A stretch of 64,000 bases of DNA from Acidobacteriota bacterium (GCA_030650395.1 JAUSDY010000030.1:5108-69107); one strand, 5' to 3'; shown: positions 28,052 to 44,169, numbered from the stretch's first letter. Translations and numbers: made by a program. Notes: generated by a model not told the origin, from the letters alone.

Positions 28052-30097
28052 TCAGGGAAGACCGTAGGCGACCAACTCGCCCGAATACGCACCGCCGCTG
28101 ATGGCGACCACCAGGAACTGTTTGCCGTTCACCATGTAGGTCATGGGCGAGCCAGATTGTGGCGCCGGCATGAAGACCGCGCCGACTTCCGTGCCGGTCA
28201 CCTTGTCGAACGCACGCAGCATGGCCCCGCGCTGGCCGGAAGGCGTCGGTCCATAGTTTTTTTCCCCGGCCACGACCAGCGTCCTGGTCACCAGGGTTCC
28301 CGAATTGTTGCCCGGGCGGCCCAGGGGCGGAAGGTTCAGCCCTTTGAGGGCCGGGTGATTGCGTATGGTCTCGGGAGTGGCGCCAAACGGCACCTGCCAT
28401 CGGAACTCGCCCTTGTCGAGATCGATCGCCGTGAGGCGACTATACGGCGGCTTCACAAGCGGCAGGCCCTGGATGTTCAGGCCCCCACCCCCGCCACCTT
28501 CCGGCGCGGGCTCCGCTGGCGGCGCTGCGGAGGCCGCACCGGAGCCGGAACCGCCCGTGCGTCGAGCGCCCGACAGCACTGTGCCTTGAAAATACGGTAC
28601 GTCCGACGCCCCGGGTGGTGGCGGAACCAGGCCGAGCGTCGCAATCGCGGTCTGCGACGCGACGAAGACTGTGTGCGTTTCGGGATCGTACGATCCGCCG
28701 GGCCAGTTCGAGGCGGCCGCCTGGGCGCCCATCGTCAGCGTGGCAATCGGTCCCTCCGCCCTGCTGACCGACGGCGGCGTGAAGACAGGTCCGATTCGGT
28801 AGCGTGACACCAGCTTCACCGCCTCAGCGCGCAACTGCGGTGTGAAGTCGATCAAGTCGTCGACCGCCAGCCCCGTCCCATCGTACGCCGGGGGCCTGAT
28901 GGGAATCGGCTGTGTCGGCGCGTACCACTCACCCGGCGTGTCGCCCTTGGGTACCGGCCGTTCCTCGATGGGCCAAATCGGCTCGCCGGTTTCCCGATTG
29001 AGGACGTACAGAAATGCCTGCTTGGTCGGCTGGGCAAGCGCCTTGACAGTCCGGCCGTTGACGGTGATGTCGGCGAGAATCGGGGCGCATGGAATGTCCA
29101 TGTCCCAGATGCCGTGGTGCACCAGCTGATAGTGCCAGCGCCGGCGGCCGGTCGCGAGTTCCACAGCGACGATACTCTCGCTGAACAGGTTATGGCCCGG
29201 ACGATCGCCGCCGTAGTAGTCGTGGGTCGGCATTTCCACCGGCAAGTAGGCGAGGCCAAGGGCCTCGTCCGCGGACATCTGCGCCCACACGCCCGTGTTA
29301 CCGGTGTAGACGGCCGATTCGTCTTCCCAGGTGTCGTGGCCAAAATCGCCCCGCGAGGGAATGGTTCGAAACAGCCACAGTCGCTTGCCGGTCCGCACGT
29401 CGAAGCCCCGCACGTAACCCTTGATGTTTTTCTTGCTCTTGGGGTTCGCACCGGTCTCGAACGCCGCTCCCACGATCACCACATTGCGCGCCACCAGCGG
29501 AGTGGCGTGCAGACCGACTGCCGCCGTGATCGGATCGACCACCTGGTCGAAATCCTGTTTCAGATCGACAATCCCGCCGCGACCGAACTCCCGCACCGGC
29601 TGGCCATTTCGGGCGTCCAGCGCGACCAGCTGGTACCCTGGCGTGACATACAGGATGCGCTCCTGTTTGCCGTCGGTCCAGTACGCGAGACCGCGGCCCG
29701 ACAGTTGTCGCGGCGCGGCCTGTCCGCGCGCGCCCTCGTTCTCGCTGTGCACCCAGAGCAGCTCACCGGTCGCCGCAGCGACGGCAAAGACGGCGCGCCT
29801 CGTGCCACCGGTTGAGAACAGTCGACCGTTGACCATCAACGGCGTCGACTGAAAATTGAACTCCCGCTGCGGACCAAGGTTATCGGTCTTGAATCGCCAC
29901 ATCGGCACGAGGCTGGAAAAATTGTCGCGGTGGATTTGATCGAGCGGCGAATAGCGGGTGTTGCCGAGGTCACCTCCGTAGGTCGGCCATTCGCCGTTGC
30001 TGGGGCCCGACTGCCCTCGAACCACGGGCCCGCCGCACACGAGCACGACAACAATCGCCAGGGAGCCCAGTGTCCATACCATCGGCTTTTTTAACAT
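28052..30097 (-). CDS. PQQ-dependent dehydrogenase (glucose/quinate-type beta-propeller), secreted
   Basis: WPTYGGD..NTRYSPLDQI, G.VRGFDV.TG..LW, HHGIWDMD, PMTY..NGKQ. Confidence 0.9.
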   Translation of the reverse strand: MLKKPMVWTLGSLAIVVVLVCGGPVVRGQSGPSNGEWPTYGGDLGNTRYSPLDQIHRDNFSSLVPMWRFKTDNLGPQREFNFQSTPLMVNGRLFSTGGTRRAVFAVAAATGELLWVHSENEGARGQAAPRQLSGRGLAYWTDGKQERILYVTPGYQLVALDARNGQPVREFGRGGIVDLKQDFDQVVDPITAAVGLHATPLVARNVVIVGAAFETGANPKSKKNIKGYVRGFDVRTGKRLWLFRTIPSRGDFGHDTWEDESAVYTGNTGVWAQMSADEALGLAYLPVEMPTHDYYGGDRPGHNLFSESIVAVELATGRRRWHYQLVHHGIWDMDIPCAPILADITVNGRTVKALAQPTKQAFLYVLNRETGEPIWPIEERPVPKGDTPGEWYAPTQPIPIRPPAYDGTGLAVDDLIDFTPQLRAEAVKLVSRYRIGPVFTPPSVSRAEGPIATLTMGAQAAASNWPGGSYDPETHTVFVASQTAIATLGLVPPPPGASDVPYFQGTVLSGARRTGGSGSGAASAAPPAEPAPEGGGGGGLNIQGLPLVKPPYSRLTAIDLDKGEFRWQVPFGATPETIRNHPALKGLNLPPLGRPGNNSGTLVTRTLVVAGEKNYGPTPSGQRGAMLRAFDKVTGTEVGAVFMPAPQSGSPMTYMVNGKQFLVVAISGGAYSGELVAYGLP

Positions 30098-30114
30098 GCT
30101 GGTCCTCTCGGGTG

Positions 30115-31491
30115 TCAATTGACTCGAGCACCGGTCCAGCCGGCTCTCATCCGCGCCCGATCCACTTCCTTTCCTCGAAGATAGACCCGGGCAATGCGTC
30201 GTGTATTGGTGATGTCGTCCAGCGGGTTGGCGTCGAGCACGACAAAGTCTGCGCTCTTGCCCGGAGCGATGGTCCCGAGCGCATCCAGATCGAGAATCTC
30301 CGCGGAGGTTCGCGTGGCGGCAACCAGCGCTTGCGCCGGAGTCATGCCTGCCGCCACCAGGTTCTCCACTTCGGTGTGCATCGTCCAGCCGATGAATTGA
30401 TCGCCCAGCTGCCCGCCGCCGTCGGTTCCGGCGCCGATCCGCACACCAGCGTCGTTCAGTCGGCGAATACCGGCCGCCAACCGTGCCCAGTTGGCTTCCC
30501 CGCGCGTGCGCGCCTCAGGAATCTCGGACGCGAGCCGATCGCGCAGCCGCTTGATTTGCTCCGGGCGGACCGTTTCGGTGATCAGCGGATGCGTCGGGTT
30601 GAGCCAAGGCGCGTAGATCTGGCGCCGCGGCCCGCCGAGCGCCGAGAGCACGGCGGTCTTTGGATGCTGTTTGAATAACTCCACCAGTTCGTCATCGACG
30701 TCGCCGATCATGTGCGCGAAAATATCCACGCCCGCTCGCAGCAGCGCCTTGGCGTCGGCCAGGCCGGTCGCATGCACCGCGACGCGCAGCTTACGTTTGT
30801 GCGCCTCGTCGATGATCGCGGTGTACAGCTCCGGCGGGAGCTTCCGCACACTCCCGCCCCGGTCGTCAACCCAAGTCTTCACGATCTTCACGTTCCGCTC
30901 CGCCAATTCCTGCACGGCTGTCCTGGCATCGGCTTCGGTCCTGATGACGTAGGCGGCGTGCCGCATGTTATCGGGCTTCACCTCGTCTTCGGGGGCCAAA
31001 CCGCGCCCGGCTGTCAGGAAACGCGCGGCGTCTGGGTATTGGCCCGATTGAATCTCGTCTCGCAATCCGTACCACGCGTCTCCGAAATCGGATCCCATGG
31101 CCTGGCTGGCAGCCACGCCAAAATACGCGAAGCGGTACATGTGATCGAGGATGTGCTCCCGTGTGTAGTTCTGCGGGCCGCTGGTCAGGTGCTTCATGTA
31201 GCCGATGTGCGAATGCGCATCGACGAGCCCCGGAATCACCGTGGTGCCTGTGAGGTCGACTCGTGCCGCGCCGGCCGGCACTTCGACCGCGCCCCGGCGT
31301 CCGACGCGGGCAATCTTGTCGTTGTCGACCAGGATGGCCGCGTTCTCGATCGGCGCCGAACCATCGCCCACAATCACGCGGGCGCCTTCGAACACCGTGA
31401 CGTGGCCCGATGGCGGCGTGTCTTGGGCCGGTGGCGACGAACACGCCGACAGGATCAGGTGACCGAGGAGCCCTAGTGTCAGCGGACGCAT
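30115..31491 (-). CDS. amidohydrolase-family lipoprotein
   Basis: Lipobox LSAC, PGLVDAHSH, VAVHA, GTD, G.IAPGK.AD.VVLD.NPL. Confidence 0.9.
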   Translation of the reverse strand: MRPLTLGLLGHLILSACSSPPAQDTPPSGHVTVFEGARVIVGDGSAPIENAAILVDNDKIARVGRRGAVEVPAGAARVDLTGTTVIPGLVDAHSHIGYMKHLTSGPQNYTREHILDHMYRFAYFGVAASQAMGSDFGDAWYGLRDEIQSGQYPDAARFLTAGRGLAPEDEVKPDNMRHAAYVIRTEADARTAVQELAERNVKIVKTWVDDRGGSVRKLPPELYTAIIDEAHKRKLRVAVHATGLADAKALLRAGVDIFAHMIGDVDDELVELFKQHPKTAVLSALGGPRRQIYAPWLNPTHPLITETVRPEQIKRLRDRLASEIPEARTRGEANWARLAAGIRRLNDAGVRIGAGTDGGGQLGDQFIGWTMHTEVENLVAAGMTPAQALVAATRTSAEILDLDALGTIAPGKSADFVVLDANPLDDITNTRRIARVYLRGKEVDRARMRAGWTGARVN

Positions 31492-31529
31492 AGCGTTCCT
31501 CACCCTGGAGGCGCGGTCAGGCGGCAGGC

Positions 31530-32092
31530 TCATTTCTTCAGTAACGCGGTCCAGTTGAGAACCACCGTAATCGATGGAGGCGTCGTGCCTTCGATCGGCG
31601 CCTTCATCAGAAATCGCCGTCCGTCGGCCGCAGGAACGTAGTCCATCCGGTAGGCGTTCATGTTCGTAGAAAGCGCGGTCTTGAACAGAGGGGTCACCGC
31701 TCCGGGCTCGAACGCCGGCTGCGTCCGAACGGCAACGGCCATCAACATTCCGTCCGACCGCAGGTAGAACAGCTCGCGGCCGTCCTTGCTCCATCGTGGC
31801 TGCGAGCCGCCGCCAGTCGATACGGTTGTTTTCTGAGCGATACCCAAATCGGGAAAACTCTGAACGTAGATCTCGTACTTCCCGGACTCGTCCGAGGCGT
31901 ACGCGATCCATCGGCTATCGGGCGACACGGCCCCTTGGACTTCGTTGTATTGAGCACGAGCGATGGAAATCGGTTTCGCGACCTGCGATCGAGCCTCGTG
32001 TCGCGCGCTTTGTAGACCTCGCCCATCCCGCCGGCGCCAAGCGGCGACAGGATTTCATACGGGCCGAGCCGGGCGCCGATGCTGAGCGGCAT
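31530..32092 (-). pseudogene. Ser/Thr kinase with PD40 propeller, large internal deletion
   Basis: Start [36 protein letters not shown] joined near 31983, out of frame, to C-terminal [31 protein letters not shown]. Confidence 0.88.
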
Positions 32093-34031: not shown

Positions 34032-35315
34032 TCAACAGGTAAACAGCTTGATGGTGAGCACCGGCTGGCTGCCCGATCCCGATGTCACCGTGTCCGTGCC
34101 GCTTGGATCGGTCACGGTCACCGTCACATTCAACGCGCTGTCGGCGCCTTCGGCGGTAGAGCCTGCGCCGTTGCACTGTTCGGTGAACGTGAAGTTCGGG
34201 CTCGTGCTGGTCTGCGTTTTCGTGATCGTGGTGGCGCCGTACAGGTACGTCGCGGTCCACGCGAAGGTCGCCGTCGCCGATGTGACATTCGAGGTGGCCG
34301 CAAACACGCATGGCGTGGCGGTCGATCGAATGTGACAGCTCGTGCCCGTCCCGGTTCCCCGGAACGGATCGCTCATCGTGAACGCCGTGGCCAGCGCCGC
34401 GCCGGCCTGGTTGATGTCGAGCAGCGTCGAGCCATTGGTCCAGCGCACGCGAATTTGTCCCGACCGCGCGTTACCCGTGTTTGGAGCCACGGTGTAGGTC
34501 AGCGTCCCCGTATCCGAGCCGGTGCCCCCGCCCGTGATCGAGACGAATGAGGCGAGGACGTCGGAACTATACGTACAGCCGCTCGAGATCTTGGTGACCG
34601 TCACGGTGAAGGTACCGCCGGCGGCCGGCACGGTCTGGCTCGACGGAGAGATGCCGTAAAGACACGGCTGCACAAAGCAGGTCGCCGCGACACCGCCGCC
34701 GTCGATCTGCGAGAACACCTTGTCGACCGACGTAGTGTGGTCGCACGCGTTGACGCGGTAACGGAGATATTCCTGCGTCCAGATCACGCCGCCCTCTCGG
34801 TCGGCGAACAACGGGTTCTGACCGCGCCCCATCGCCCCGTATTTCGATTCGAGCGAGTTTCGGAACTCGAACGAGTCGCCGCGGCCCGGGAACAACACCA
34901 GGCCGTCCGGCGGCGCGCCGCACACCCCGCCGGCCGCGTTGCCGTCGATCTGCGTCATCACGCGCTGCAGGGCGGTGCCGTGGTCGCAGCCGTTGACGCG
35001 GTAGCGGATGTATTCCTGCGTCCAGACCACTTCGCCTTCGATGTCGACCGTCGTCGGCGACCCGCCGCGACGGAGGCCGTCTCGATACTTGCCCTCGAGG
35101 CTGTTGCGGAATGCAAACGAGTCGTTGCGGCCAGGAAACGACACATCCATCGGACCTGACACGCCGCCGGGCGCCACCGATGAGGCACCGAGCAGCGATC
35201 CAGGCGCCGCCGCCGAAGGCGCCGTCGGCGAACCTGCCGAAGACCGTTCGGGGTTGCGGGAACATCCCGCGACCAGGGCGAGCGTGCAAAGTAGCAGCGT
35301 CAGGTAATGTGACAT
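34032..35315 (-). CDS. lipoprotein with two tandem ~80-aa domains, a BACON domain and an Ig-like C-terminus
   Basis: Lipobox VAGC; FPGR.DSF.FRNSLE.KY...WTQEY.RYRVN.CDH twice; YTVAPNTG.ARSG.I. Confidence 0.82.
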   Translation of the reverse strand: MSHYLTLLLCTLALVAGCSRNPERSSAGSPTAPSAAAPGSLLGASSVAPGGVSGPMDVSFPGRNDSFAFRNSLEGKYRDGLRRGGSPTTVDIEGEVVWTQEYIRYRVNGCDHGTALQRVMTQIDGNAAGGVCGAPPDGLVLFPGRGDSFEFRNSLESKYGAMGRGQNPLFADREGGVIWTQEYLRYRVNACDHTTSVDKVFSQIDGGGVAATCFVQPCLYGISPSSQTVPAAGGTFTVTVTKISSGCTYSSDVLASFVSITGGGTGSDTGTLTYTVAPNTGNARSGQIRVRWTNGSTLLDINQAGAALATAFTMSDPFRGTGTGTSCHIRSTATPCVFAATSNVTSATATFAWTATYLYGATTITKTQTSTSPNFTFTEQCNGAGSTAEGADSALNVTVTVTDPSGTDTVTSGSGSQPVLTIKLFTC

Positions 35316-35450
35316 GAGGACTCTCCCGGAAGCCACAGACCGATTAGCAGGCGCGAGCATAAACGGATCGGTCACCAATCATAGTCCCGTCTGGCGATCC
35401 GGGTAGAGGCTTTCACACATCTGCGCAACGCGTCGTCCCACTACGGACCC

Positions 35451-38035: not shown

Positions 38036-38500
38036 ATGCGTACGCTGCTGTGGCTCGCGCCACTTGTCGTCCTGGGCGGTTCGTCGTGCTCGCGTCCGGC
38101 CCCGCCTCCTCCCTCGCCGCCATTTCAGACCGTGGCCACCGGCAAAGAGCTGATGAATGCCGTCCTCGATCCGGCGGTCGATGTGATCTGGGACGCCGTC
38201 GGTTGGATCGTGACGTCCGAGGGCACCTTTGCGAAAGCGCCCGCCACTGATGATGAGTGGGCCACCGTGCGCGCCAGCGCCATCCAGCTCGCCGAATCAG
38301 GCAACCTGCTGATGATCGGCAACCGCTCCGGCGGATCGCCGGAGTGGATCACGCAGTCGCAGGCGCTGATCGACACCAGCAGGCGCGCCATCCAGGCGAT
38401 CGACAAGAAAGACAAGGACGCGCTCTTCACCATTGGCGGCGATCTCTACGACGTCTGCACCAATTGCCACCGGCAATTCATGCCCGGCGCTCGTCAGTAA
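38036..38500 (+). CDS. monoheme cytochrome c'-like lipoprotein
   Basis: Lipoprotein-like signal (..GGSSC), helical body, C-terminal CTNCH. Confidence 0.78.
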   Translation: MRTLLWLAPLVVLGGSSCSRPAPPPPSPPFQTVATGKELMNAVLDPAVDVIWDAVGWIVTSEGTFAKAPATDDEWATVRASAIQLAESGNLLMIGNRSGGSPEWITQSQALIDTSRRAIQAIDKKDKDALFTIGGDLYDVCTNCHRQFMPGARQ

Positions 38501-38510
38501 GTAACAGCTG

Positions 38511-39077
38511 ATGTCGCTCCTGGCGTTTTGTGAATGGCTGGCCGCAACCCGCGGCAGCATCGCGCTGCACGAGTCGCTCGTGATGTACCCCCTCATCGAA
38601 TCAACCCACGTCCTGGCGTTGACGTTGTTCGTGGGCCTGGCGGTGATTCTCGACCTGCGCCTGCTCGGCCTCGCCCTGACCCGCGTGCCGGTGACCGACA
38701 TCGCCACGCGGCTTCTGCCGTGGACCAAGGTAGGGTTCACGGTGATGGTGATCACCGGCGTCCTGCTGTTCTACGCGATTCCGGTGCGGACCTATCAGAG
38801 CATTTTCTTCCGCGTCAAGGTGGTGATGCTGATTCTCGCCGGCCTCAACGTCTGGATCTTCAACAACCGCGTCTTCCTGCGCGTCGGCGAGTGGGACCGC
38901 GACGCGAGAACGCCGAAGGCCGCGCGGCGGGCCGCGCTGTTTTCGTTGATCTTGTGGGGCGGCATCATCGTGGCCGGGCGGATGATTGCGTATAACTGGT
39001 TCGACTGCGACATCCAGCCGCAGCCGGCCATCGTCAACTTCGTGGCGGGCTGCGTCGTGCCGCCGCCGGCACCCTGA
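38511..39077 (+). CDS. DUF6644-like 4-TM membrane protein
   Basis: YP.IES.HVL.L....G...DLRLLG, TG.LLF, F..K, SL..W......GR.IAY. Confidence 0.8.
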   Translation: MSLLAFCEWLAATRGSIALHESLVMYPLIESTHVLALTLFVGLAVILDLRLLGLALTRVPVTDIATRLLPWTKVGFTVMVITGVLLFYAIPVRTYQSIFFRVKVVMLILAGLNVWIFNNRVFLRVGEWDRDARTPKAARRAALFSLILWGGIIVAGRMIAYNWFDCDIQPQPAIVNFVAGCVVPPPAP

Positions 39078-39089
39078 GGAGCCGCGCAG

Positions 39090-39563
39090 ATGCTGCTGCC
39101 CTTCTTCGAGTGGTGCGAACAACTCTGGCTCGGCCAGTTCATCGTCGGCTCGAACTGGCTGTTCCCGGTGATCGAGTCGGTGCACCTGCTCGGGCTCTCG
39201 GTACTCGGCGGCGCGATTCTCGTCGTCGATATGCGGCTGCTGGGGCTGGGATTGAAGAACCATCCCGTGACGGAGCTGGCGCGCGACGCGCGGCCGTGGC
39301 TGATCGGCGCGCTGGTCGTGATGATCGCAACGGGTATCCCGCTGTTCCTGTCGGAGTCGGTCAAGTGCTATTACAGCCAGGCGTTCTGGAACAAGATGAC
39401 GGCGCTGGCAATCGGCCTGGTGTTCACGTTCACGATCCGCGCGCGCGTCACCGAAACCGAATCCGTAGGTAACACAGCGCGCCGCCAGGCTGTGGTCGGC
39501 GCGCTGTCGTTAGCGCTGTGGTTCACCGTTGCCGCAAGCGGCAGGTGGATTGGCTTTTCGTAG
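39090..39563 (+). CDS. DUF6644-like 4-TM membrane protein (paralog)
   Basis: FP.IESVHLLGL...G...DMRLLG, F..KM, SL.LW..V...GRWIGF. Confidence 0.8.
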   Translation: MLLPFFEWCEQLWLGQFIVGSNWLFPVIESVHLLGLSVLGGAILVVDMRLLGLGLKNHPVTELARDARPWLIGALVVMIATGIPLFLSESVKCYYSQAFWNKMTALAIGLVFTFTIRARVTETESVGNTARRQAVVGALSLALWFTVAASGRWIGFS

Positions 39564-39572
39564 GCGGGTCCA

Positions 39573-39604
39573 TCGCGGATCTAAAGATCCGCGCTACACC
39601 GTCG
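39573..39604 (-). repeat. GTAG REP
   Basis: 32 bp identical to 4074-4105. Confidence 0.88.
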
Positions 39605-39605
39605 A

Positions 39606-40058
39606 TTATCTGCCTGGCGGTTTCTTTGGTTTCTCGGTCGGGTCGCGGCCGTCCGTCGGGGCGCCGGTGCCGGACGAGCCCATGAACAGCTTGCGGCCGT
39701 CGGTGAACGTCACGTCGCGGCCATTGGCGCGCTTGAGCGAATGATCCTTCGTCTGGTAGCCGTCGACGATGATCTCGGTGCCGTTGATCAGCGAGTCCCT
39801 CGTCACGCCCCGGCGCAGCAGCGTATTCGGCGTACCGCCTTCGATCATCCAGACTTCGGGCTTGCCGTCCTTGATGACCTCGATGTGAATCCAGGTGTGC
39901 GGATTGACCCACTCGAGCCTGACGATCTTGCCCTGCAGGCGGATCGGCGCATTCGGATCGAACTCCGCGCCGAACGCGTGATGCGCCACCACCGGCCGGC
40001 CGGCGAGGATCAGCCCCGCGCCCACCACTATGGTCCCGATTGTCGTTCGCATGCTCAT
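39606..40058 (-). CDS. DUF6152-like secreted protein
   Basis: Signal then AHHAF.AEFD, WVNPH.WI, W..E.G.PN.L.R.G. Confidence 0.82.
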   Translation of the reverse strand: MSMRTTIGTIVVGAGLILAGRPVVAHHAFGAEFDPNAPIRLQGKIVRLEWVNPHTWIHIEVIKDGKPEVWMIEGGTPNTLLRRGVTRDSLINGTEIIVDGYQTKDHSLKRANGRDVTFTDGRKLFMGSSGTGAPTDGRDPTEKPKKPPGR

Positions 40059-41131
40059 TGTTGTTTCCCCGTCCGCTTCTCTTCGTTTCGCGCGCCGCTC
40101 AGCACGTTCGACAGGGCGTAGTTCCCTTCGTGGCACGCGTACTCATAGATTAACTCGTTGGTGGCCTGGAATGGAATCTCTCCGGTAAACGGGCTCACAA
40201 AGGTGGTCGGGTCCTGAACCGTAAACCGGTAGTTGATGGTCTTCGCATCGACGCGACGGAAGCGCTCGATCACGTGCAGATTCGCCGACGAACCCCGGAA
40301 ACTCTGCTGGGGCGGGAAATTCGTGGTGTCGACGACGAGCGTGTCGCCTTCCCAGTGTCCGATCGAGTCACCCATCCAGGGGCGAATATGCGACGGCACA
40401 TGCCTGCCGCCGATGCGCACCACGCGGGCGTCGTGAACCATTTCCATGAGAATCATCACGTGGTCGGGCGTCTGCACGATCTGCAGGTTGTTGTTGTAGA
40501 AGTAGTTCGGAACGAGCGGGGTCGTCGGCCCGAACGACAGCAGGCAGCGCTCGGCCAGCGGTCGATTTTCGGGGTGATCGTATTGGCCGCCGCGTGACGC
40601 ATTCGTCTTCATGCGCTCCTGCTGCCGCGCGCGGTAGTCGGCGGTAAAGGCGGGCAAGCGGCCGTTGGGCGGATCAATCAGCAACGAGCTTCGTTTCTGG
40701 CCGTCGACCACGGCGACGCGATCGCCGGGGTCAAGCCAGAAATTGTTGTAGCCGCCGACGTTGCCGGCAGCGCCGGTGGAGCCGTCGCCGCCCTTCGGAG
40801 GAGCGGCACGGTTGGGGTCGCTCGCTTCGCCGAGCCGCTCGACGCGATCGGCCGTAGCTTTCTCCATGCGCGCGGCCTCGGCATCGGTCAGCACCAGGTT
40901 GGCGACGGTGGCCGGCCGCTCGAGCGGCGTGATGGTCGCGTTGGTCCAGATGCCCTGCAGGTCCGGTTTTCCGTCACCCGTCCGCGGCATCGTCCATGGC
41001 TTGGCAATGCCCGACGGCGGCGCGATCGGGCGCTGGCCCGCGATCGCGGTCACGCCGAACGCGGCGATCGTCGCCGCGGCAATGGCTCCGGCCACCAAGT
41101 TTCGTTTCGCTTCCATGTGCTTTCCTTCCAT
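40055..41131 (-). CDS. secreted hypothetical protein (GKPDL.G.W / C-terminal EYAC.E family)
   Basis: GKPDLQGIW, ERC, G.SIGHWEGDTLVV.T, ERF.R, YEYACHEGN. Confidence 0.8.
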   Translation of the reverse strand: MEGKHMEAKRNLVAGAIAAATIAAFGVTAIAGQRPIAPPSGIAKPWTMPRTGDGKPDLQGIWTNATITPLERPATVANLVLTDAEAARMEKATADRVERLGEASDPNRAAPPKGGDGSTGAAGNVGGYNNFWLDPGDRVAVVDGQKRSSLLIDPPNGRLPAFTADYRARQQERMKTNASRGGQYDHPENRPLAERCLLSFGPTTPLVPNYFYNNNLQIVQTPDHVMILMEMVHDARVVRIGGRHVPSHIRPWMGDSIGHWEGDTLVVDTTNFPPQQSFRGSSANLHVIERFRRVDAKTINYRFTVQDPTTFVSPFTGEIPFQATNELIYEYACHEGNYALSNVLSGARNEEKRTGKQQ

Positions 41132-41181
41132 GGATAAACCTAAAGGTTTGTCCCCACCTGCCTAAGGTTTGTCCCCACCTG
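41132..41181. repeat. GTGG-variant REP with a partial duplication
   Basis: GGATAAAC-CTAAAG-GTTTGTCC-CCAC followed by CCTAAGGTTTGTCCCCACCTG. Confidence 0.75.
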
Positions 41182-41187
41182 CATTGT

Positions 41188-42060
41188 TCACGGGACCGGC
41201 GTCTTGCGGAACTTGCCGTACAACAACTCTTCGACGAACTCGACGCACTTGAACTGATTGAGCCGCGCGTCCGGGTTGATGTGCCGGTAGAGCGGCATGC
41301 GGATCTTCCACGGGCGGCTGAACGTCTGGGGATCTTCGATGGTGGCTTCGTACCAGATGTGATCGGGACCCTGCGGCGTATAGCGCTCGGTGACCTTCAT
41401 CTTTTCGCTGTGATGATTGCCGGCGCGATCGAACCACGTCTGATCGTTCAGGCCGGTTACGGTAATGACGAGCGTATCGCCTTCCCACTTGCCGACCGAC
41501 TGCCCCATCCACGAATCAACCGGCGCAGGACCAGGATCGGTCATGAAGATGTTGCGAACGGCGCCTGCATATTCGTAGGCGAAGAAGATCGCCTTCTCGC
41601 TCTGCAGGATCTGGAACGGGAACGGCAGGTAGTTCGCGCGCGGCACGCCGGGCAGGTAGCACTTGATCTCCGGATCGGAGTCGAGCCAGCTCTCCTGGTT
41701 CTTCTTTTGCTTCGCGGCGGCTTCGGGCAAGTACGGAATCTCGTCGCCTTCGACGACGCCGACGCCGCCGGGCACCGCGCCGACCGCGCCAAACGCCAGC
41801 ACCGGCGCCGCCGGCACGGGCACGATCGGCCCCGGGCGAAACGCCAGCGCGGCGCGCGCGTTGTGCGAGCGGAGTTCGTAGTTGGCGGTGTTGAGGGCCT
41901 GCCAGACGCCGTTGAAATTGGGTTTGCCGTCGGCGGTGCGCGCCGGACGTGCGGCCTGCCCGGTGGCAGGTTCGGCCGTCCAGAAGCCGGCGGCGACAAC
42001 GGCTGCCGTCGCAAGAGCGATCGTGATGTCTCTCAGTGCTCTGCGCTCGATCAACGGCAC
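41188..42060 (-). CDS. secreted hypothetical protein, paralog of 40055-41131
   Basis: GKPNFNGVW, DP..KC..PG.PR, G.SVGKWEGDTLV, ERY, FKCVE. Confidence 0.8.
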   Translation of the reverse strand: MPLIERRALRDITIALATAAVVAAGFWTAEPATGQAARPARTADGKPNFNGVWQALNTANYELRSHNARAALAFRPGPIVPVPAAPVLAFGAVGAVPGGVGVVEGDEIPYLPEAAAKQKKNQESWLDSDPEIKCYLPGVPRANYLPFPFQILQSEKAIFFAYEYAGAVRNIFMTDPGPAPVDSWMGQSVGKWEGDTLVITVTGLNDQTWFDRAGNHHSEKMKVTERYTPQGPDHIWYEATIEDPQTFSRPWKIRMPLYRHINPDARLNQFKCVEFVEELLYGKFRKTPVP

Positions 42061-42234: not shown

Positions 42235-44169
42235 ATGTTGACGCGACAATTCGTGATCGCTTTATCGTGCGCGATATGGCTCGCAGCTGTTGAGGTACCA
42301 CTCGAAGGCCAGGGCGGGCGCAAGCCGGTCGTGCGCCCGCAACCCGCGCCGGAGGTCGAGCTGTTCGAGGTGTTCGAGCAATCGATCCTGGATCTGCAGG
42401 CCGCGCAAACCAGCGGCCGGGTCACCTCCCGCGCGCTGGTCGACTCGTACCTGGCGCGCATCCAGGCCTACGACCAGGCCGGGCCGCGGCTGAACGCGAT
42501 CGTCGTGCTCAACCCGCGTGCGCGGGAAGATGCGGATGCCCTCGATCGCGAGCGCGCCGCGACGGGGCCGCGCGGTCCGCTGCACGGCGTCCCCGTACTG
42601 GTGAAAGACAACTACGACACCGCTGACATGCCGACCTCGGGCGGCGCGCTTGGCCTGGCGACGATGCAGCCGGCCGCCGATGCGTTCCAGGTGAGGAAGC
42701 TGCGCGACGCGGGCGCGGTGATTCTCGGCAAGACCACGATGCACGAGCTCGCCGCGGGCATCACGACGATCTCGTCGATGACGAGCCAGACGCGCAATCC
42801 GTACGACTTGTTGCGCGTGCCGGGCGGATCCAGCGGCGGCACCGGCGCGGCCGTCGGCGCCAGCTTCGCCACGGCGGGCATGGGCAGCGACACCTGCGGA
42901 TCGATCCGCATTCCGGCTGCGAATCAGAATCTGGTCGGCCTGCGCGGCACGCACGGCCTGTCGAGCCGCACCGGCGTGATCCCGCTCTCGTCCACGCAGG
43001 ACATCGCGGGACCGCTCGCGCGATCGGTGACGGACCTGGCGATCATGCTCGACGCGACGGTGGGCGCGGATCCCACCGATGCCATCACCGCCGAGAGCGC
43101 GGGACGCATTCCGAAGACGTATCGCGATTCGCTCAAAGCCGACGGGCTCAAGGGCGCGCGCATCGGCACGCTGCGCTCGCTGTTCGGCACGGCGCCCGAA
43201 GACGACGAAGTCGCGGGCATCGTCCGCAAGGCGCTCGACGGGTTGAAGGCGCAGGGCGCGGAAGTGGTGGAGATCACGGTGCCCGGGCTGGACGATCTCC
43301 TGCGCGACAGCAGCTTGATCAACGACGAGTTCAAGTTCGACCTGGCGGCGTACCTGGCGAAGCAGCCGAACGCGCCGGTCAAGACGCTGGGCGAGATCAT
43401 CGACCGCGGCCTGCATCATGCGCAGCTCGATCAGACGTTCAGGCTGAGGAACGCGCCGGAGAAGCGCGAGACCGAGCACTATCGGCAGGTGATGGTGAAG
43501 CGGCGCGCGCTGCGGGCGGCGGTGCTGGCCGCGATGGAAGAACAGCGCATCGACGCGCTTGCCTACCCCACGCTGCGGCGCAAACCCGCATTGATCGGCG
43601 AGGGCCAGGCGGGCAGCGCCTGTCAGCTCAGCGCGCACAGCGGCCTGCCCGCGATCTCGATGCCGGCCGGGTTCAGCCCCGACGGCTTGCCGATCGGCCT
43701 CGAGCTACTCGGTGCAGCGTTTTCCGAGGAGACGCTCTTGAAGTACGCGTTCGCGTGGGAGCAGGCAACGAAGCCTCGCCGCCCGCCGTTCAGCACGCCC
43801 GCGTTGATCAAGGGCGTCGCACCGGGTCCCGTGACGCTCGACATGACGATCGCGGGCGCCGCCACGGGCGCGTCGGCCCTCGTCAAGCTGACCTACGACC
43901 GCACGACGGGCACGCTTCGCTACGATGCCACGACGTCGGGGCTGGCGACGTCTGACCGCGTGCTCGCGCTGACGCTGCAACGGAGCATCGCCGACAAGCC
44001 GGGCCCGATCATCGCGCACATTCTCGCGCCGAATCAGATTTCAGGAAGCGGGACGCTGACCATGCGCGGCCGCGATCGCGACGACCTCGTCGCCGGCACG
44101 CTCTACCTGCACTTCTACACGCGCCAATCGCCGCTGGGTGTGGCTCGGGTAAAGCTGGTCCTGCCCTAG
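42235..44169 (+). CDS. secreted amidase (AS family) with a C-terminal CHRD-like domain
   Basis: GPLHG.P..VKDN, GGSSGG, GSDT.GSIR.PA. Confidence 0.92.
   Translation: MLTRQFVIALSCAIWLAAVEVPLEGQGGRKPVVRPQPAPEVELFEVFEQSILDLQAAQTSGRVTSRALVDSYLARIQAYDQAGPRLNAIVVLNPRAREDADALDRERAATGPRGPLHGVPVLVKDNYDTADMPTSGGALGLATMQPAADAFQVRKLRDAGAVILGKTTMHELAAGITTISSMTSQTRNPYDLLRVPGGSSGGTGAAVGASFATAGMGSDTCGSIRIPAANQNLVGLRGTHGLSSRTGVIPLSSTQDIAGPLARSVTDLAIMLDATVGADPTDAITAESAGRIPKTYRDSLKADGLKGARIGTLRSLFGTAPEDDEVAGIVRKALDGLKAQGAEVVEITVPGLDDLLRDSSLINDEFKFDLAAYLAKQPNAPVKTLGEIIDRGLHHAQLDQTFRLRNAPEKRETEHYRQVMVKRRALRAAVLAAMEEQRIDALAYPTLRRKPALIGEGQAGSACQLSAHSGLPAISMPAGFSPDGLPIGLELLGAAFSEETLLKYAFAWEQATKPRRPPFSTPALIKGVAPGPVTLDMTIAGAATGASALVKLTYDRTTGTLRYDATTSGLATSDRVLALTLQRSIADKPGPIIAHILAPNQISGSGTLTMRGRDRDDLVAGTLYLHFYTRQSPLGVARVKLVLP

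What the first reader, a model, noticed from the sequence alone, without database searches (positions are those of the whole stretch)
38036..42060. Candidate undescribed periplasmic metal/redox system: cytochrome c, two DUF6644-like, DUF6152-like and two Cys-pair proteins
Seen: two convergent operons of six envelope proteins with no assigned function. These are a lipoprotein with C-terminal CxxCH; two paralogous 4-TM proteins, each with IES.H in TM1 (the first also has a Cys pair in its tail); a secreted protein whose predicted mature N-terminus is His-His plus an NPH motif; and two paralogous secreted proteins, each with exactly two Cys and WEGDTLV. Established: an N-terminal His after signal cleavage is the His-brace copper site of CopC and LPMOs, and TM His pairs ligate heme b or copper. 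Inference: a heterodimeric membrane module passes electrons or metal, via the cytochrome, to a DUF6152/Cys-pair enzyme complex. This is my best protein-level candidate for a new system in the window.
Basis: partly seen in the sequence, partly recalled or inferred. Interest (0 to 1): 0.76.

Follow-up and report, generated by a model that had tools for sequence, protein, structure and literature searches.

The report
Undescribed six-gene periplasmic metalloprotein module
Six neighbouring genes for exported and membrane proteins of unknown function are a unit that soil bacteria of at least two phyla keep together, most likely a small histidine-tipped metal protein bound to barrel proteins and wired to the membrane through a cytochrome; no paper describes it.

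Summary
The six genes are a class II cytochrome c lipoprotein, two DUF6644 four-helix membrane proteins, a DUF6152 protein whose mature end is His-His, and two unnamed two-cysteine proteins.

They are one conserved unit. In 151 genomes of the window's phylum, DUF6152, DUF6644 and the barrel family occur in the same 13 genomes. In 101 genomes of a second phylum, DUF6152 and strong DUF6644 pairs share the same 5. Of 80 loci found through DUF6644b, 43 show the exact order and convergent orientation.

New here:
- DUF6152 folds as an OB barrel, not a CopC or LPMO fold.
- The two-cysteine proteins are calycin barrels.
- A complex model supports DUF6152 binding barrel A (score 0.66, best control 0.01).
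- 42 of the 80 loci add a seventh gene, a cytochrome c fused to a quinoprotein-like propeller.
- DUF6152 and barrel genes multiply (at least 30 copies in one genome), while the cytochrome and DUF6644 genes stay at one to three sets.

Best reading, at about 0.4: a periplasmic metal-protein complex exchanges electrons with c-type cytochromes and, through DUF6644, with the membrane. Metal import is the main rival. No metal or haem was measured. Earlier notes of this scan found the same module on other DNA.

The parts
38036..38500 (+). Probable lipoprotein, a class II (four-helix-bundle type) cytochrome c of 154 aa. It has Cys18 after a signal-like N-terminus, a Pro-rich linker, invariant Met40 and C-terminal C141-T-N-C144-H145.
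   Evidence: ORF and motifs. A profile of 31 relatives matches cytochrome c' 1cpr at E 1.3e-4. 24 of 31 relatives hit Pfam Cytochrom_C_2 at E<=1, all below its cut-off. M40, C141, C144 and H145 are invariant in the 31. The lipoprotein reading is inferred: the Cys is conserved but the lipobox here is atypical.
38511..39077 (+). DUF6644 membrane protein 'a', 188 aa, about four TM helices. IESTH sits in TM1 (His33). The C-terminal tail carries Cys166 and Cys181.
   Evidence: Pfam PF20349 at E 2.5e-12. E30, H33, D48, R50, K103, C166 and C181 are each kept in at least 90% of 83 aligned sequences. Hydropathy and the positive-inside rule suggest N-out, C-out (inferred).
39090..39563 (+). DUF6644 membrane protein 'b', 157 aa, a paralog of 'a' (33% identity). 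IESVH sits in TM1 (His32).
   Evidence: Pfam PF20349 at E 2.2e-29. H32, G41, D47, R49 and G82 are invariant in 50 DUF6644 sequences of both types. Fused a-b forms exist.
39574..39593 (.). Perfect 8-bp inverted repeat (CGCGGATC, loop TAAA, GATCCGCG) in the 42-bp gap between the two convergent stop codons. It may be a two-way transcription stop.
   Evidence: Read directly from the sequence. The terminator scan does not list it because it has no T run. Its function is inferred.
39606..40058 (-). DUF6152 ('H'), a secreted 150-aa protein predicted as an OB fold. The mature N-terminus is predicted as His26-His27, followed by the NPH motif (His54) and Glu73.
   Evidence: Pfam PF19649 at E 1.1e-27. 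H26, H27, H54, W70, E73 and G93 are invariant in 62 orthologs and paralogs. AlphaFold2 model: pLDDT 86.3. OB-fold matches: 4dam_A at Z 8.3, rmsd 2.9 over 85 residues and Foldseek E 6.7e-4. The start codon overlaps the stop of barrel A at 40055-40058.
40055..41131 (-). Barrel protein A, 358 aa, secreted, from an unnamed family. Features are Cys196, Cys333, WEGDTLV and the C-terminal motif YEYACHEGNY.
   Evidence: No Pfam or NCBIfam family. At least 8000 homologs were found (the scoring cap), none with a Pfam family and none named other than 'hypothetical protein' among the 120 listed. C196, R236, D255, W260, E289, Y301, D307, E330, C333, H334, E335 and N337 are invariant in 58 sequences. The complex model with DUF6152 passes its controls.
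41188..42060 (-). Barrel protein B, 290 aa, secreted, a paralog of A. It is predicted as a calycin (FABP/lipocalin-like) barrel with a helical insertion. Features are Cys134, Cys272 and WEGDTLV.
   Evidence: AlphaFold2 model: pLDDT 88.5, pTM 0.82. Calycin matches: 5xn9_A at Z 8.3, rmsd 3.5 over 120 residues, plus FABPs and nitrobindin at Z 6.8. Best Foldseek E is only 2.6e-3. 10,533 cluster representatives match at E<=0.001.

Best explanation
The six genes encode one envelope system made of two parts.

Part 1 is a periplasmic complex. The small OB-fold protein DUF6152 has a processed N-terminus of His-His, plus His54 and Glu73, which most likely hold a transition metal (copper is the best guess). 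It binds a calycin barrel protein (A, and probably B) whose conserved Cys pair and CHEGN motif lie at the interface. The barrels probably hold a small organic ligand.

Part 2 is a membrane hub. It consists of a class II cytochrome c lipoprotein with His/Met haem ligation and a DUF6644 heterodimer. Each DUF6644 subunit offers one invariant His in the periplasmic half of TM1. I propose these two His ligate a haem b.

Proposed working: the hub links the quinol pool to periplasmic c-type cytochromes, which reduce or oxidise the metal centre of the DUF6152-barrel complex. In most other lineages a cytochrome c fused to a quinoprotein-like propeller dehydrogenase, encoded just upstream of B, is a second electron partner. 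The logic resembles cytochrome-fused dehydrogenases that drive His-brace copper enzymes. One hub serves many DUF6152-barrel modules of differing specificity.

Shown: gene unity, folds, conservation, and a complex model that passes its controls.
Inferred: the metal, the haem b, the direction of electron flow and any catalysis.
For: One unit:
- DUF6152 occurs in 14 of 151 genomes of the phylum.
- DUF6644 occurs in 15 of 151, 13 of them over the cut-off.
- The barrel family occurs in 13 of 151. These are the same 13 genomes.
- In a second phylum, DUF6152 occurs in 5 of 101 genomes. The 5 genomes with two strong DUF6644 matches are the same ones, with the genes no more than about 2 kb apart.
- The exact arrangement c>a>b>H<A<B< appears in 43 of 80 loci, and all six families in 49 of 80. 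It also appears in 6 of the 7 single-module loci of the phylum sample (L006-L011), with a variant in L012.

DUF6152 with the barrels:
- 18 of 20 DUF6152 paralog loci carry A and/or B within 5 kb.
- The A stop and DUF6152 start overlap.
- Complex model of A with DUF6152: ipSAE 0.66 (runs 0.66, 0.70, 0.36), best of 3 controls 0.01. The runs agree in at least 81% of contacts and the partner pLDDT is at least 71. In the tool's calibration 58 of 80 solved complexes and 2 of 110 mismatched pairs reach this mark. The counts hold only roughly because my own alignments were used.
- The interface joins DUF6152 51-56 (NPH) and 73-83 to A 326-350 (CHEGN) and Cys196.

Metal site: H26, H27, H54 and E73 are invariant in 62 sequences. 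Secreted proteins with an N-terminal His are experimentally metal binders (passages read in PMC12537917).

Redox context:
- The class II cytochrome c has an invariant Met40 and CxxCH.
- A cytochrome c fused to a quinoprotein-like propeller lies directly upstream of B in 42 of 80 loci.
- PQQ-type propellers are the most frequent Pfam family among 89 neighbour ORFs of the paralog modules, at 5 members.

Hub and clients, as DUF6152 copies against DUF6644 matches: at least 30 against 4 (G122), 16 against 6 (G044), 14 against 4 (G110), 11 against 2 (G073), and 3 against 2 in this genome.

DUF6644 as a pair: tandem nearly everywhere, with fused forms and one invariant His per subunit.
Against: - No metal, haem or activity was measured.
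- The complex model does not place His26 or His27 in a confident contact, so a single site built from all four invariant residues is unproven.
- DUF6152 has no Cys and no conserved Met, so it lacks the usual Cu(I) or type-1 copper ligands.
- DUF6644 has no detectable kinship to any characterised haem protein. UPF0093/HemJ is hit by only 2 of 50 members at E<=1, and there is no solved relative.
- The propeller gene is absent from this window's cluster. Its homolog in this genome lies elsewhere with no module nearby.
- Three full-length loci carry the DUF6644 pair without DUF6152 or barrel genes within 8 kb (L041, L070, L102).
- Expansion into many copies would also fit a nutrient-binding role.
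- The fold matches (Z about 8) are at the level the tool calls common, so they assign a fold class only.
Confidence: 0.4

Rival explanations
1. Metal capture and import. DUF6152 uses its N-terminal histidines to fish a metal ion (Cu, Ni or Zn) from the periplasm and hands it to the DUF6644 heterodimer, which acts as a permease. The cytochrome reduces Cu(II) to Cu(I) for transport. This is the logic of CopC-CopD, YcnI-YcnJ and the 'anglerase'-HupE/UreJ fusions.
For: - The N-terminal His-His, His54 and Glu73 are invariant.
- DUF6152 lies next to the DUF6644 pair across two phyla.
- DUF6644 has a conserved Glu and His in the periplasmic half of TM1 and invariant Asp47 and Arg49.
- N-terminal-His domains that hand metal to permeases are described in PMC12537917 (passages read).
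- Abstracts listed report copper exchange between YcnI and YcnJ (PMC12362106) and a copper-binding domain in YcnI (PMC8424229).
Against: - It gives no role to the two barrel proteins or to the cytochrome-fused propeller.
- It does not explain 11 to at least 30 DUF6152 copies per genome against one to three DUF6644 sets.
- hhalign finds no similarity of DUF6644 to E. coli YebZ (probability 0.2%) or of DUF6152 to YobA (6.6%).
- The OB fold is not the CopC or YcnI fold.
- In the model, His54 and Glu73 sit at the interface with barrel A rather than exposed for hand-over.
Confidence: 0.22
2. Ligand shuttle without redox chemistry. The barrels bind a small organic molecule that crosses the outer membrane, such as a scavenged cofactor like PQQ for the many quinoprotein dehydrogenases, or another nutrient. 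DUF6152 caps or loads the barrel. The DUF6644 pair takes the ligand up or anchors the complex.
For: - The barrels have a calycin fold, a class of small-ligand binders.
- Many Arg, Tyr and Trp residues are conserved in the barrels.
- PQQ-type propellers recur beside the modules, and this genome has 48 PF01011 matches.
- Three TonB-type outer-membrane barrels are among the 89 neighbour ORFs.
- The propeller also resembles the NCBIfam 'acido-empty-quinoprotein' family (E 2.2e-22, far below its cut-off).
Against: - It gives no role to two c-type cytochromes.
- An invariant N-terminal His-His points to a metal rather than an organic ligand.
- Nothing shows that this genome lacks PQQ synthesis. The PqqC search was uninformative because its control rang nowhere.
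Confidence: 0.12
3. Dedicated thiol-disulfide maturation. The DUF6644 pair, with the Cys166/Cys181 tail of subunit a, is a quinone-linked oxidoreductase in the manner of the four-helix DsbB or VKOR. It forms or reduces the conserved Cys pair of the barrel proteins.
For: - A Cys pair is conserved in the periplasmic tail of DUF6644a, each residue in at least 90% of 83 aligned sequences.
- A Cys pair is conserved in every barrel.
- The membrane proteins have four helices.
- A peroxiredoxin-domain gene follows the DUF6644 pair in one locus, L016.
Against: - Subunit b and the more distant DUF6644 pairs lack the tail cysteines; they are not conserved across the 50-sequence alignment.
- The family's invariant residue is a His, not a Cys.
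- The idea needs neither the cytochrome nor DUF6152.
- No similarity to DsbB or VKOR appeared in the Pfam scans.
Confidence: 0.05
4. Two unrelated operons that merely converge here.
For: They are transcribed from opposite strands. A few loci hold one half without the other (L041, L070, L102).
Against: The same convergent arrangement appears in 43 of 80 loci from two phyla. The families share 13 of 13 and 5 of 5 genomes in the two samples.
Confidence: 0.02

Closest known systems
His-brace copper enzymes (LPMOs) driven by cytochrome-bearing partners: cellobiose dehydrogenase, the PQQ pyranose dehydrogenase with a cytochrome domain, and the bacterial c-type cytochrome CjX183
   Same: A secreted protein whose processed N-terminal His is invariant. 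Genes for c-type cytochromes and, in 42 of 80 loci, a cytochrome-fused quinoprotein-like dehydrogenase lie beside it. For PMC8981238 and PMC10952591 I saw only the title and the start of the abstract in the listing. The fungal examples are recalled.
   Different: The fold is OB, not the immunoglobulin-like LPMO fold. There are two histidines at the tip. The protein has an obligate-looking calycin barrel partner and no carbohydrate-binding context. Copper and any oxygenase activity are unproven.
CopC-CopD copper uptake pairs (E. coli YobA-YebZ; B. subtilis YcnI with YcnJ)
   Same: A small periplasmic protein with an N-terminal His is encoded next to a polytopic membrane protein. Two DUF6644 subunits of four helices each add up to about eight helices, as in CopD (the CopD helix count is recalled).
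   Different: No profile similarity (hhalign probability 0.2% and 6.6%). CopD is hit by only 1 of 50 DUF6644 members at E 0.3. The fold is OB rather than a beta-sandwich. Barrels and cytochromes have no counterpart.
N-terminal-His metal binders found by 'signal strapping': DUF4198 (Ni), DUF6702, and anglerases fused to HupE/UreJ permeases (PMC12537917, passages read)
   Same: A secreted protein with a conserved His at position 1 after signal cleavage, and a proposed hand-over to a membrane protein.
   Different: DUF6152 is not among the DUF families in the 12 of 22 passages I saw. The paper describes DUF6702 and the anglerases as sharing a beta-sandwich architecture and DUF4198 as a divergent fold; DUF6152 is predicted as an OB barrel. 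DUF6152 comes with barrels and cytochromes.
Pfam DUF2214 and, more distantly, UPF0093 (HemJ, a haem b protein by recall)
   Same: Small proteins of about four helices with a conserved His in the first helix. DUF2214 is hit by 20 of 50 DUF6644 members (best E 3.9e-6).
   Different: DUF2214 is itself uncharacterised. UPF0093 is hit by only 2 of 50 members (best E 0.029). DUF6644 occurs as a heteropair or as a fusion.
Class II cytochromes c (cytochrome c' and cytochrome c-556)
   Same: CxxCH at the C-terminus and a profile match to cytochrome c' (E 1.3e-4). The invariant Met40 near the N-terminus sits where low-spin c-556 has its sixth ligand (the c-556 detail is recalled).
   Different: Every member scores below the Pfam cut-off. 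The protein is lipid-anchored through a Pro-rich linker and is always encoded with a DUF6644 pair.
Calycin barrels (FABP and SAHS proteins, nitrobindin, lipocalins)
   Same: Predicted barrel fold: Z 8.3 to 6.8 over 109 to 127 aligned residues.
   Different: The match shows fold class only, with no sequence relation. The barrels carry a helical insertion of about 90 residues, a conserved Cys pair, many conserved charged residues and a protein partner.

Membership tests
Pfam DUF6152 (PF19649) | Match to the family model above its cut-off | tested here: met
   E 1.1e-27, 96.3 bits against a cut-off of 27.
Pfam DUF6644 (PF20349) | Match to the family model above its cut-off | tested here: met
   47.7 and 103.1 bits against a cut-off of 27.
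Class II cytochrome c (Pfam Cytochrom_C_2, PF01322) | Match to the family model above its cut-off | tested here: not met
   14.6 bits against a cut-off of 26.5. 24 of 31 relatives hit at E<=1, the best at 2.5e-4, all below the cut-off.
Class II cytochrome c (Pfam Cytochrom_C_2, PF01322) | C-terminal CxxCH haem site on a four-helix bundle, with an optional N-terminal Met ligand | tested here: inconclusive
   CTNCH lies at 141-145 of 154, and M40, C141, C144 and H145 are invariant. The profile matches cytochrome c' at E 1.3e-4 over the last helix only. The fold was not modelled.
CopC (periplasmic copper chaperone) | Beta-sandwich (cupredoxin-like) fold | tested here: not met
   The model's best matches are OB-fold proteins: SSB, PriB and tRNA-synthetase N-domains at Z 8.3 to 6.5.
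CopC (periplasmic copper chaperone) | Sequence kinship | tested here: not met
   hhalign of 62 DUF6152 sequences against E. coli YobA gives probability 6.6% over 21 columns. The template was a single sequence, so this is a weak test.
CopC (periplasmic copper chaperone) | N-terminal His as a copper ligand | not testable with these tools
   His26 is predicted to be residue 1 after cleavage and is invariant. Metal binding needs experiment.
CopD (PF05425) | Sequence kinship | tested here: not met
   hhalign against E. coli YebZ gives probability 0.2%. 1 of 50 members hits PF05425, at E 0.3.
LPMO (His-brace monooxygenases) | Immunoglobulin/fibronectin-like beta-sandwich carrying a His1 plus second-His brace | tested here: not met
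   DUF6152 is predicted as an OB fold. The His1 and later-His pattern is present, but its geometry is untested.
HemJ / UPF0093 (PF03653) | Sequence kinship | tested here: inconclusive
   2 of 50 members hit at E<=1, the best at 0.029. No HemJ genes were found in 41 genomes of the phylum, so no profile could be built and no profile-profile test was run.
Calycin superfamily | Closed antiparallel barrel of the FABP/lipocalin type | tested here: inconclusive
   Z 8.3 (5xn9_A, rmsd 3.5, 120 aligned) with many FABP and nitrobindin rows. The best Foldseek E is 2.6e-3. The tool rates Z about 8 as common, so only the fold class is likely.
PQQ-dependent alcohol dehydrogenases (seventh gene of other loci, not in this window) | Match above the NCBIfam TIGR03075 cut-off | tested here: not met
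   97 bits against a cut-off of 480. Pfam PQQ is matched over positions 4-292 of 595 only.

The most novel reading that the evidence does not exclude
A previously unknown class of periplasmic metallo-oxidoreductase. An OB-fold subunit whose N-terminal His-His holds copper (or another redox metal) docks onto interchangeable calycin barrels that present small organic substrates. It draws electrons from the quinol pool through a new haem b quinol dehydrogenase (the DUF6644 heterodimer) and a class II cytochrome c, or from cytochrome-fused quinoprotein-like dehydrogenases. Expansion to at least 30 modules per genome in Vicinamibacterales-type Acidobacteriota would make it a major, unrecognised oxidative toolkit of soil bacteria.
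Probability: 0.2. Interest if true: 0.9.

Novelty: categorically new. Interest (0 to 1): 0.72.

Why it matters
- Five of the six proteins belong to families with no studied member. One of them, the barrel family, has more than 10,000 clusters at 50% identity and no database name.
- The genes behave as one inherited unit in two phyla of abundant soil bacteria, and the modules multiply to dozens of copies in some genomes.
- If the DUF6152 tip is a metal site, it would put N-terminal-histidine chemistry on a new fold and with a new kind of partner.
- If DUF6644 holds haem, it would be a new way of wiring periplasmic proteins to the membrane.
- Either result would give function to thousands of 'hypothetical' genes and bear on how Acidobacteriota and Gemmatimonadota process soil compounds.
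- The system is directly testable with ordinary protein biochemistry.

Tried and rejected
- Protein Atlas look-ups gave nothing usable for barrel A or for DUF6644b. For barrel A none of the 30 nearest clusters has a common Pfam family. For DUF6644b there was no usable hit once PF20349 was set aside.
- Profile searches against solved structures found no sequence relative for the barrels, DUF6152 or DUF6644.
- I looked for HemJ (PF03653) and DUF2214 (PF09980) genes in 41 genomes of the phylum to build profiles. Neither family scored over its cut-off, so the profile-profile test against HemJ was not done.
- A PqqC search in this genome found nothing, but the control genomes rang nowhere either, so it says nothing about PQQ synthesis.
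- A search for longer forms of DUF6644 found only 9 proteins. Three are clear DUF6644-DUF6644 fusions (P0271, P0273, P0275), and none is fused to a cytochrome or to DUF6152.
- The longer forms of DUF6152 include barrel-DUF6152 'fusions' such as P0288 and P0298. Each is a single sequence on a single contig. The two genes overlap by 4 bases, so these may be gene-calling or frameshift artefacts, and a fusion would bury the N-terminal His. I do not count them as evidence.
- The promoter and terminator scan gave nothing above shuffles: 0 promoters, and 4 terminator-like sites against 3.3 expected.
- Sequencing runs: no RNA holder is listed. Four soil runs of one study hold part of the stretch and their RNA status is only a guess. 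I did not lay reads.
- Paper searches for 'HemJ'+'CopD', 'histidine brace'+'OB-fold' and 'empty-quinoprotein' returned 0 papers. 'DUF2214' returned 2 papers that only list it.
- Only one complex job was allowed, and I spent it on barrel A with DUF6152. B with DUF6152, DUF6644a with b, the cytochrome with DUF6644, and DUF6152 with DUF6644 remain unmodelled.
I could not measure the Cys-Cys distance or the position of His26 and His27 relative to His54 and Glu73.

Full report
**What is in the window**

Searches confirm six ORFs in two convergent groups.
- On the + strand:
  - a 154-aa protein at 38036-38500 with a signal-like N-terminus ending in Cys18, a proline-rich linker and CTNCH at 141-145;
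  - a 188-aa membrane protein at 38511-39077;
  - a 157-aa membrane protein at 39090-39563.
- On the - strand, in order of transcription:
  - a 290-aa secreted protein at 41188-42060 (B);
  - a 358-aa secreted protein at 40055-41131 (A);
  - a 150-aa secreted protein at 39606-40058 (DUF6152, called H in the arrangement strings).

The gaps on the + strand are 10 and 12 bases. The stop of A overlaps the start of DUF6152 at 40055-40058, which suggests coupled translation. The 42 bases between the two convergent stops hold a perfect 8-bp hairpin.

- IESTH and IESVH in the first helices of the membrane proteins;
- Cys166 and Cys181 in the tail of the first;
- AHH followed by NPH in DUF6152;
- exactly two Cys, plus WEGDTLV, in both A and B.

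Pfam names the membrane proteins DUF6644 and the small protein DUF6152. A and B match nothing in Pfam or NCBIfam. The flanking genes look unrelated: a GHMP kinase, an HpcH-type aldolase, an amidase with a CHRD domain and an S9 peptidase.

**Is it one system?**

They are not.
- Window's phylum, sample of 151 genomes:
  - DUF6152 is in 14.
  - DUF6644 is in 15, 13 of them over the cut-off.
  - The barrel family is in 13 at E<=1e-10.
  - The 13 genomes are the same in all three searches. The extras are one genome with weak hits to both DUF families and one with a weak DUF6644 hit only.
- Second phylum, sample of 101 genomes. I reached it through locus L042, whose record is titled Longimicrobiales.
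  - DUF6152 is in 5.
  - Exactly those 5 carry two strong DUF6644 matches on the same contig, 150 to 2000 bases from DUF6152.
  - Eight further genomes have a single weak DUF6644-like match.
- Phylum-sample loci fetched:
  - Six (L006-L011) show cytochrome, DUF6644a and DUF6644b convergent with DUF6152, A and B.
  - A seventh (L012) shows the same with an insertion.
- 80 loci found through DUF6644b in one genome per species:
  - By my reading of the record titles, 22 are Acidobacteriota, 54 Gemmatimonadota and 4 'Gammaproteobacteria' MAGs.
  - 43 have the exact string c>a>b>H<A<B<, and 49 hold all six families.
  - Many of the rest are cut by contig ends.
  - Three full-length loci (L041, L070, L102) have the DUF6644 pair without DUF6152, A or B within 8 kb.

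These loci were chosen as relatives of DUF6644b, and kin are not independent. The counts show conservation among orthologous clusters, not a statistical test.

**Two parts with different copy numbers**
- This genome has three DUF6152 genes but one DUF6644 pair.
- Each DUF6152 gene sits beside A- or B-type genes, and further A/B pairs stand alone.
- In related genomes DUF6152 is expanded. The counts are at least 30, 16, 14 and 11 copies, against 4, 6, 4 and 2 DUF6644 matches.
- I fetched 20 of these paralog loci. 18 have an A and/or B gene within 5 kb, none has DUF6644, and one has a cytochrome.
- Outside this order, three genomes I checked have a single DUF6152, in the canonical cluster.

So DUF6152 plus barrels is a multiplying module. 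The cytochrome plus DUF6644 pair is a hub of one to three sets.

**The proteins**

*DUF6152*
- In 62 orthologs and paralogs, H26, H27, H54, W70, E73 and G93 are invariant. An Ala or Gly precedes the His-His as a signal-peptidase site would require.
- The AlphaFold2 model has pLDDT 86.3.
- Its best matches are OB-fold proteins. The top VIA-align match is 4dam_A at Z 8.3, rmsd 2.9 over 85 residues, with PriB and tRNA-synthetase N-domains following. Foldseek gives 6.7e-4.
- This is not the CopC, YcnI or LPMO fold.

*Barrels A and B*
- B's model has pLDDT 88.5 and pTM 0.82.
- It is a calycin-type barrel with a helical insertion of about 90 residues. The top match is 5xn9_A at Z 8.3, rmsd 3.5 over 120 residues, followed by FABPs and nitrobindin at 6.8. 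Foldseek is only 2.6e-3.
- The tool itself says Z about 8 is common, so I claim the fold class and no more.
- The family is huge and unnamed. At least 8000 homologs were scored at the cap, and the 120 listed have no Pfam family and no name other than 'hypothetical protein'. There are 10,533 representatives at 50% identity.
- In 58 A-type sequences, the invariant residues are C196, R236, D255, W260, E289, Y301, D307, E330, C333, H334, E335 and N337.

*Cytochrome*
- A profile of 31 relatives matches cytochrome c' (1cpr, E 1.3e-4).
- 24 of the 31 hit Pfam Cytochrom_C_2, all below its cut-off.
- M40, C141, C144 and H145 are invariant, and His145 is the only His in the protein.
- An N-terminal Met as sixth ligand is, from recall, the mark of low-spin class II cytochromes such as c-556. 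That would fit an electron carrier.

*DUF6644*
- In 50 sequences of both subunits, H32, G41, D47, R49 and G82 are invariant.
- Hydropathy and charge distribution suggest four helices with both ends in the periplasm. The His would then sit in the periplasmic half of helix 1, and the Cys-pair tail of subunit a would lie outside (inferred).
- The nearest Pfam family is the equally unknown DUF2214, hit by 20 of 50 members with best E 3.9e-6. HemJ is hit by 2 of 50 and CopD by 1 of 50.
- No solved structure is related.
- The pair is fused into one ORF in two loci (L015, L022) and in three database proteins. This supports a heterodimer.

**Do DUF6152 and a barrel bind?**

- The score was 0.66 (runs 0.66, 0.70, 0.36) against a best control of 0.01.
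- The runs agree in at least 81% of contacts, and the partner pLDDT is at least 71.
- In the tool's calibration, 58 of 80 solved complexes and 2 of 110 mismatched pairs reach this mark. The counts hold only roughly because my own alignments were used.
- The model supports binding. It does not show it.
- The confident interface joins the NPH loop (51-56) and residues 73-83 and 97-126 of DUF6152 to three parts of A. These are the conserved SDPNR segment (101-115), Cys196, and the C-terminal stretch 326-350 that carries E330, C333, E335 and N337.
- So the invariant His54 and Glu73 of DUF6152 and the invariant Cys-His-Glu motif of A are predicted to face each other.
- His26 and His27 are not in a confident contact. 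I could not read coordinates, so whether all these residues form one site is open.

**A seventh gene elsewhere**
- Clustering the flanks of the 80 loci revealed a protein of about 620 aa directly upstream of B on the same strand in 42 of 80 loci. It is also in three phylum-sample loci, with fragments in two more.
- It has an N-terminal cytochrome c domain and a quinoprotein-type beta-propeller. The propeller is distant from true PQQ alcohol dehydrogenases:
  - Pfam PQQ matches at E 2e-25 over half the model.
  - TIGR03075 scores 97 bits against a cut-off of 480.
  - The best PDB match is sorbose dehydrogenase at 3.4e-15.
- It is not in this window's cluster. The homolog in this genome lies on another contig with no module nearby.
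- Among 89 neighbour ORFs of the 20 paralog loci, PQQ-type propellers are the most frequent Pfam family, with 5 members, ahead of TonB-type outer-membrane barrels with 3. Several lie directly beside a module.
- This genome has 48 PF01011 matches, one of them in the window at 28052-30118.

**How it most likely works**

*Shown:* the unit, the folds, the conserved residues and a passing complex model.

*Inferred:*
- DUF6152 holds a transition metal with its N-terminal amine and histidines.
- The barrels hold a small ligand next to it.
- The cytochrome carries electrons.
- The DUF6644 pair, with one invariant His per subunit, holds a haem b and connects to quinol.

Two c-type cytochromes and a dehydrogenase-like propeller make a redox reading the best fit. 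It is the logic by which cytochrome-bearing dehydrogenases or c-type cytochromes reduce His-brace copper enzymes. For PMC8981238 and PMC10952591 I saw the title and the start of the abstract in the listing; the fungal cases are recalled. The layout of many modules and few hubs fits one reductase serving many enzymes. I put this at about 0.4.

The main rival, at about 0.22, is metal capture and import in the manner of CopC-CopD, YcnI-YcnJ or the anglerases (passages of PMC12537917 read). It explains the DUF6152-DUF6644 adjacency. It does not explain the barrels, the propeller or the copy numbers. Kinship to CopC and CopD was tested and not found.

A ligand-shuttle reading and a thiol-maturation reading are weaker.

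**What is known**
- Full-text searches return no paper with 'DUF6152' or 'DUF6644'.
- The signal-strapping paper on N-terminal-His metalloproteins treats DUF4198, DUF6702 and the anglerases. DUF6152 does not appear in the 12 of 22 passages I saw. Its supplements were closed.
- Earlier notes of this scan describe the same module on other genomes. They give the leads I tested here: OB fold, calycin barrel, CopC/CopD, HemJ, and paired or fused DUF6644. They are unchecked AI notes, not independent support.

**Verdict**

Five of the six families have no studied member and the assembly matches no described system, so I rate it categorically new, with interest 0.72.

Noticed in passing
L034:10912-12774 (-), and 41 other loci of L025-L104: A protein of about 620 aa with an N-terminal cytochrome c domain fused to a quinoprotein-like eight-bladed propeller. 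It lies directly upstream of barrel B in 42 of 80 loci but is absent from this window's cluster. It scores far below the cut-offs of true PQQ dehydrogenases and also resembles the NCBIfam 'acido-empty-quinoprotein' family.
   Followed up: partly
window 28052-30118 (-): A full-length PQQ-type dehydrogenase (Pfam PQQ at E 6e-177) about 8 kb upstream of the module, followed by an amidohydrolase at 30115-31911 (-). The genome as a whole has 48 PF01011 matches, an unusually large set.
   Followed up: partly
window 42235-44169 (+): An amidase (Pfam Amidase at E 1.5e-102) with a C-terminal CHRD domain, divergent from barrel B. Amidohydrolase genes also recur near the module in 20 of 80 other loci.
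   Followed up: no
window 34032-35378 (-): A 448-aa probable lipoprotein with an internal duplication: the motif FPGR.DSF.FRNSLE.KY...WTQEY.RYRVN.CDH occurs twice. It has only a weak BACON-domain hit and is otherwise unnamed.
   Followed up: no
L016:11419-13299 (+): In one related genome the DUF6644 pair is followed on the same strand by a 626-aa protein with a C-terminal 1-Cys peroxiredoxin domain and about 400 unnamed N-terminal residues.
   Followed up: no
G000:C101:24995-25345: A second copy of the class II cytochrome c (34% identity) elsewhere in this genome. Its neighbourhood was not examined.
   Followed up: no
P0135 (528 aa): A database protein made of two barrel domains in tandem (B-type then A/B-type). 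It hints that two barrels work side by side.
   Followed up: partly
L034, L036, L046, L049: Four records titled Gammaproteobacteria MAGs carry a cluster 60-62% identical in DUF6644b to the window's, like the Gemmatimonadota copies. This could be mis-binning or horizontal transfer of the whole cluster.
   Followed up: no
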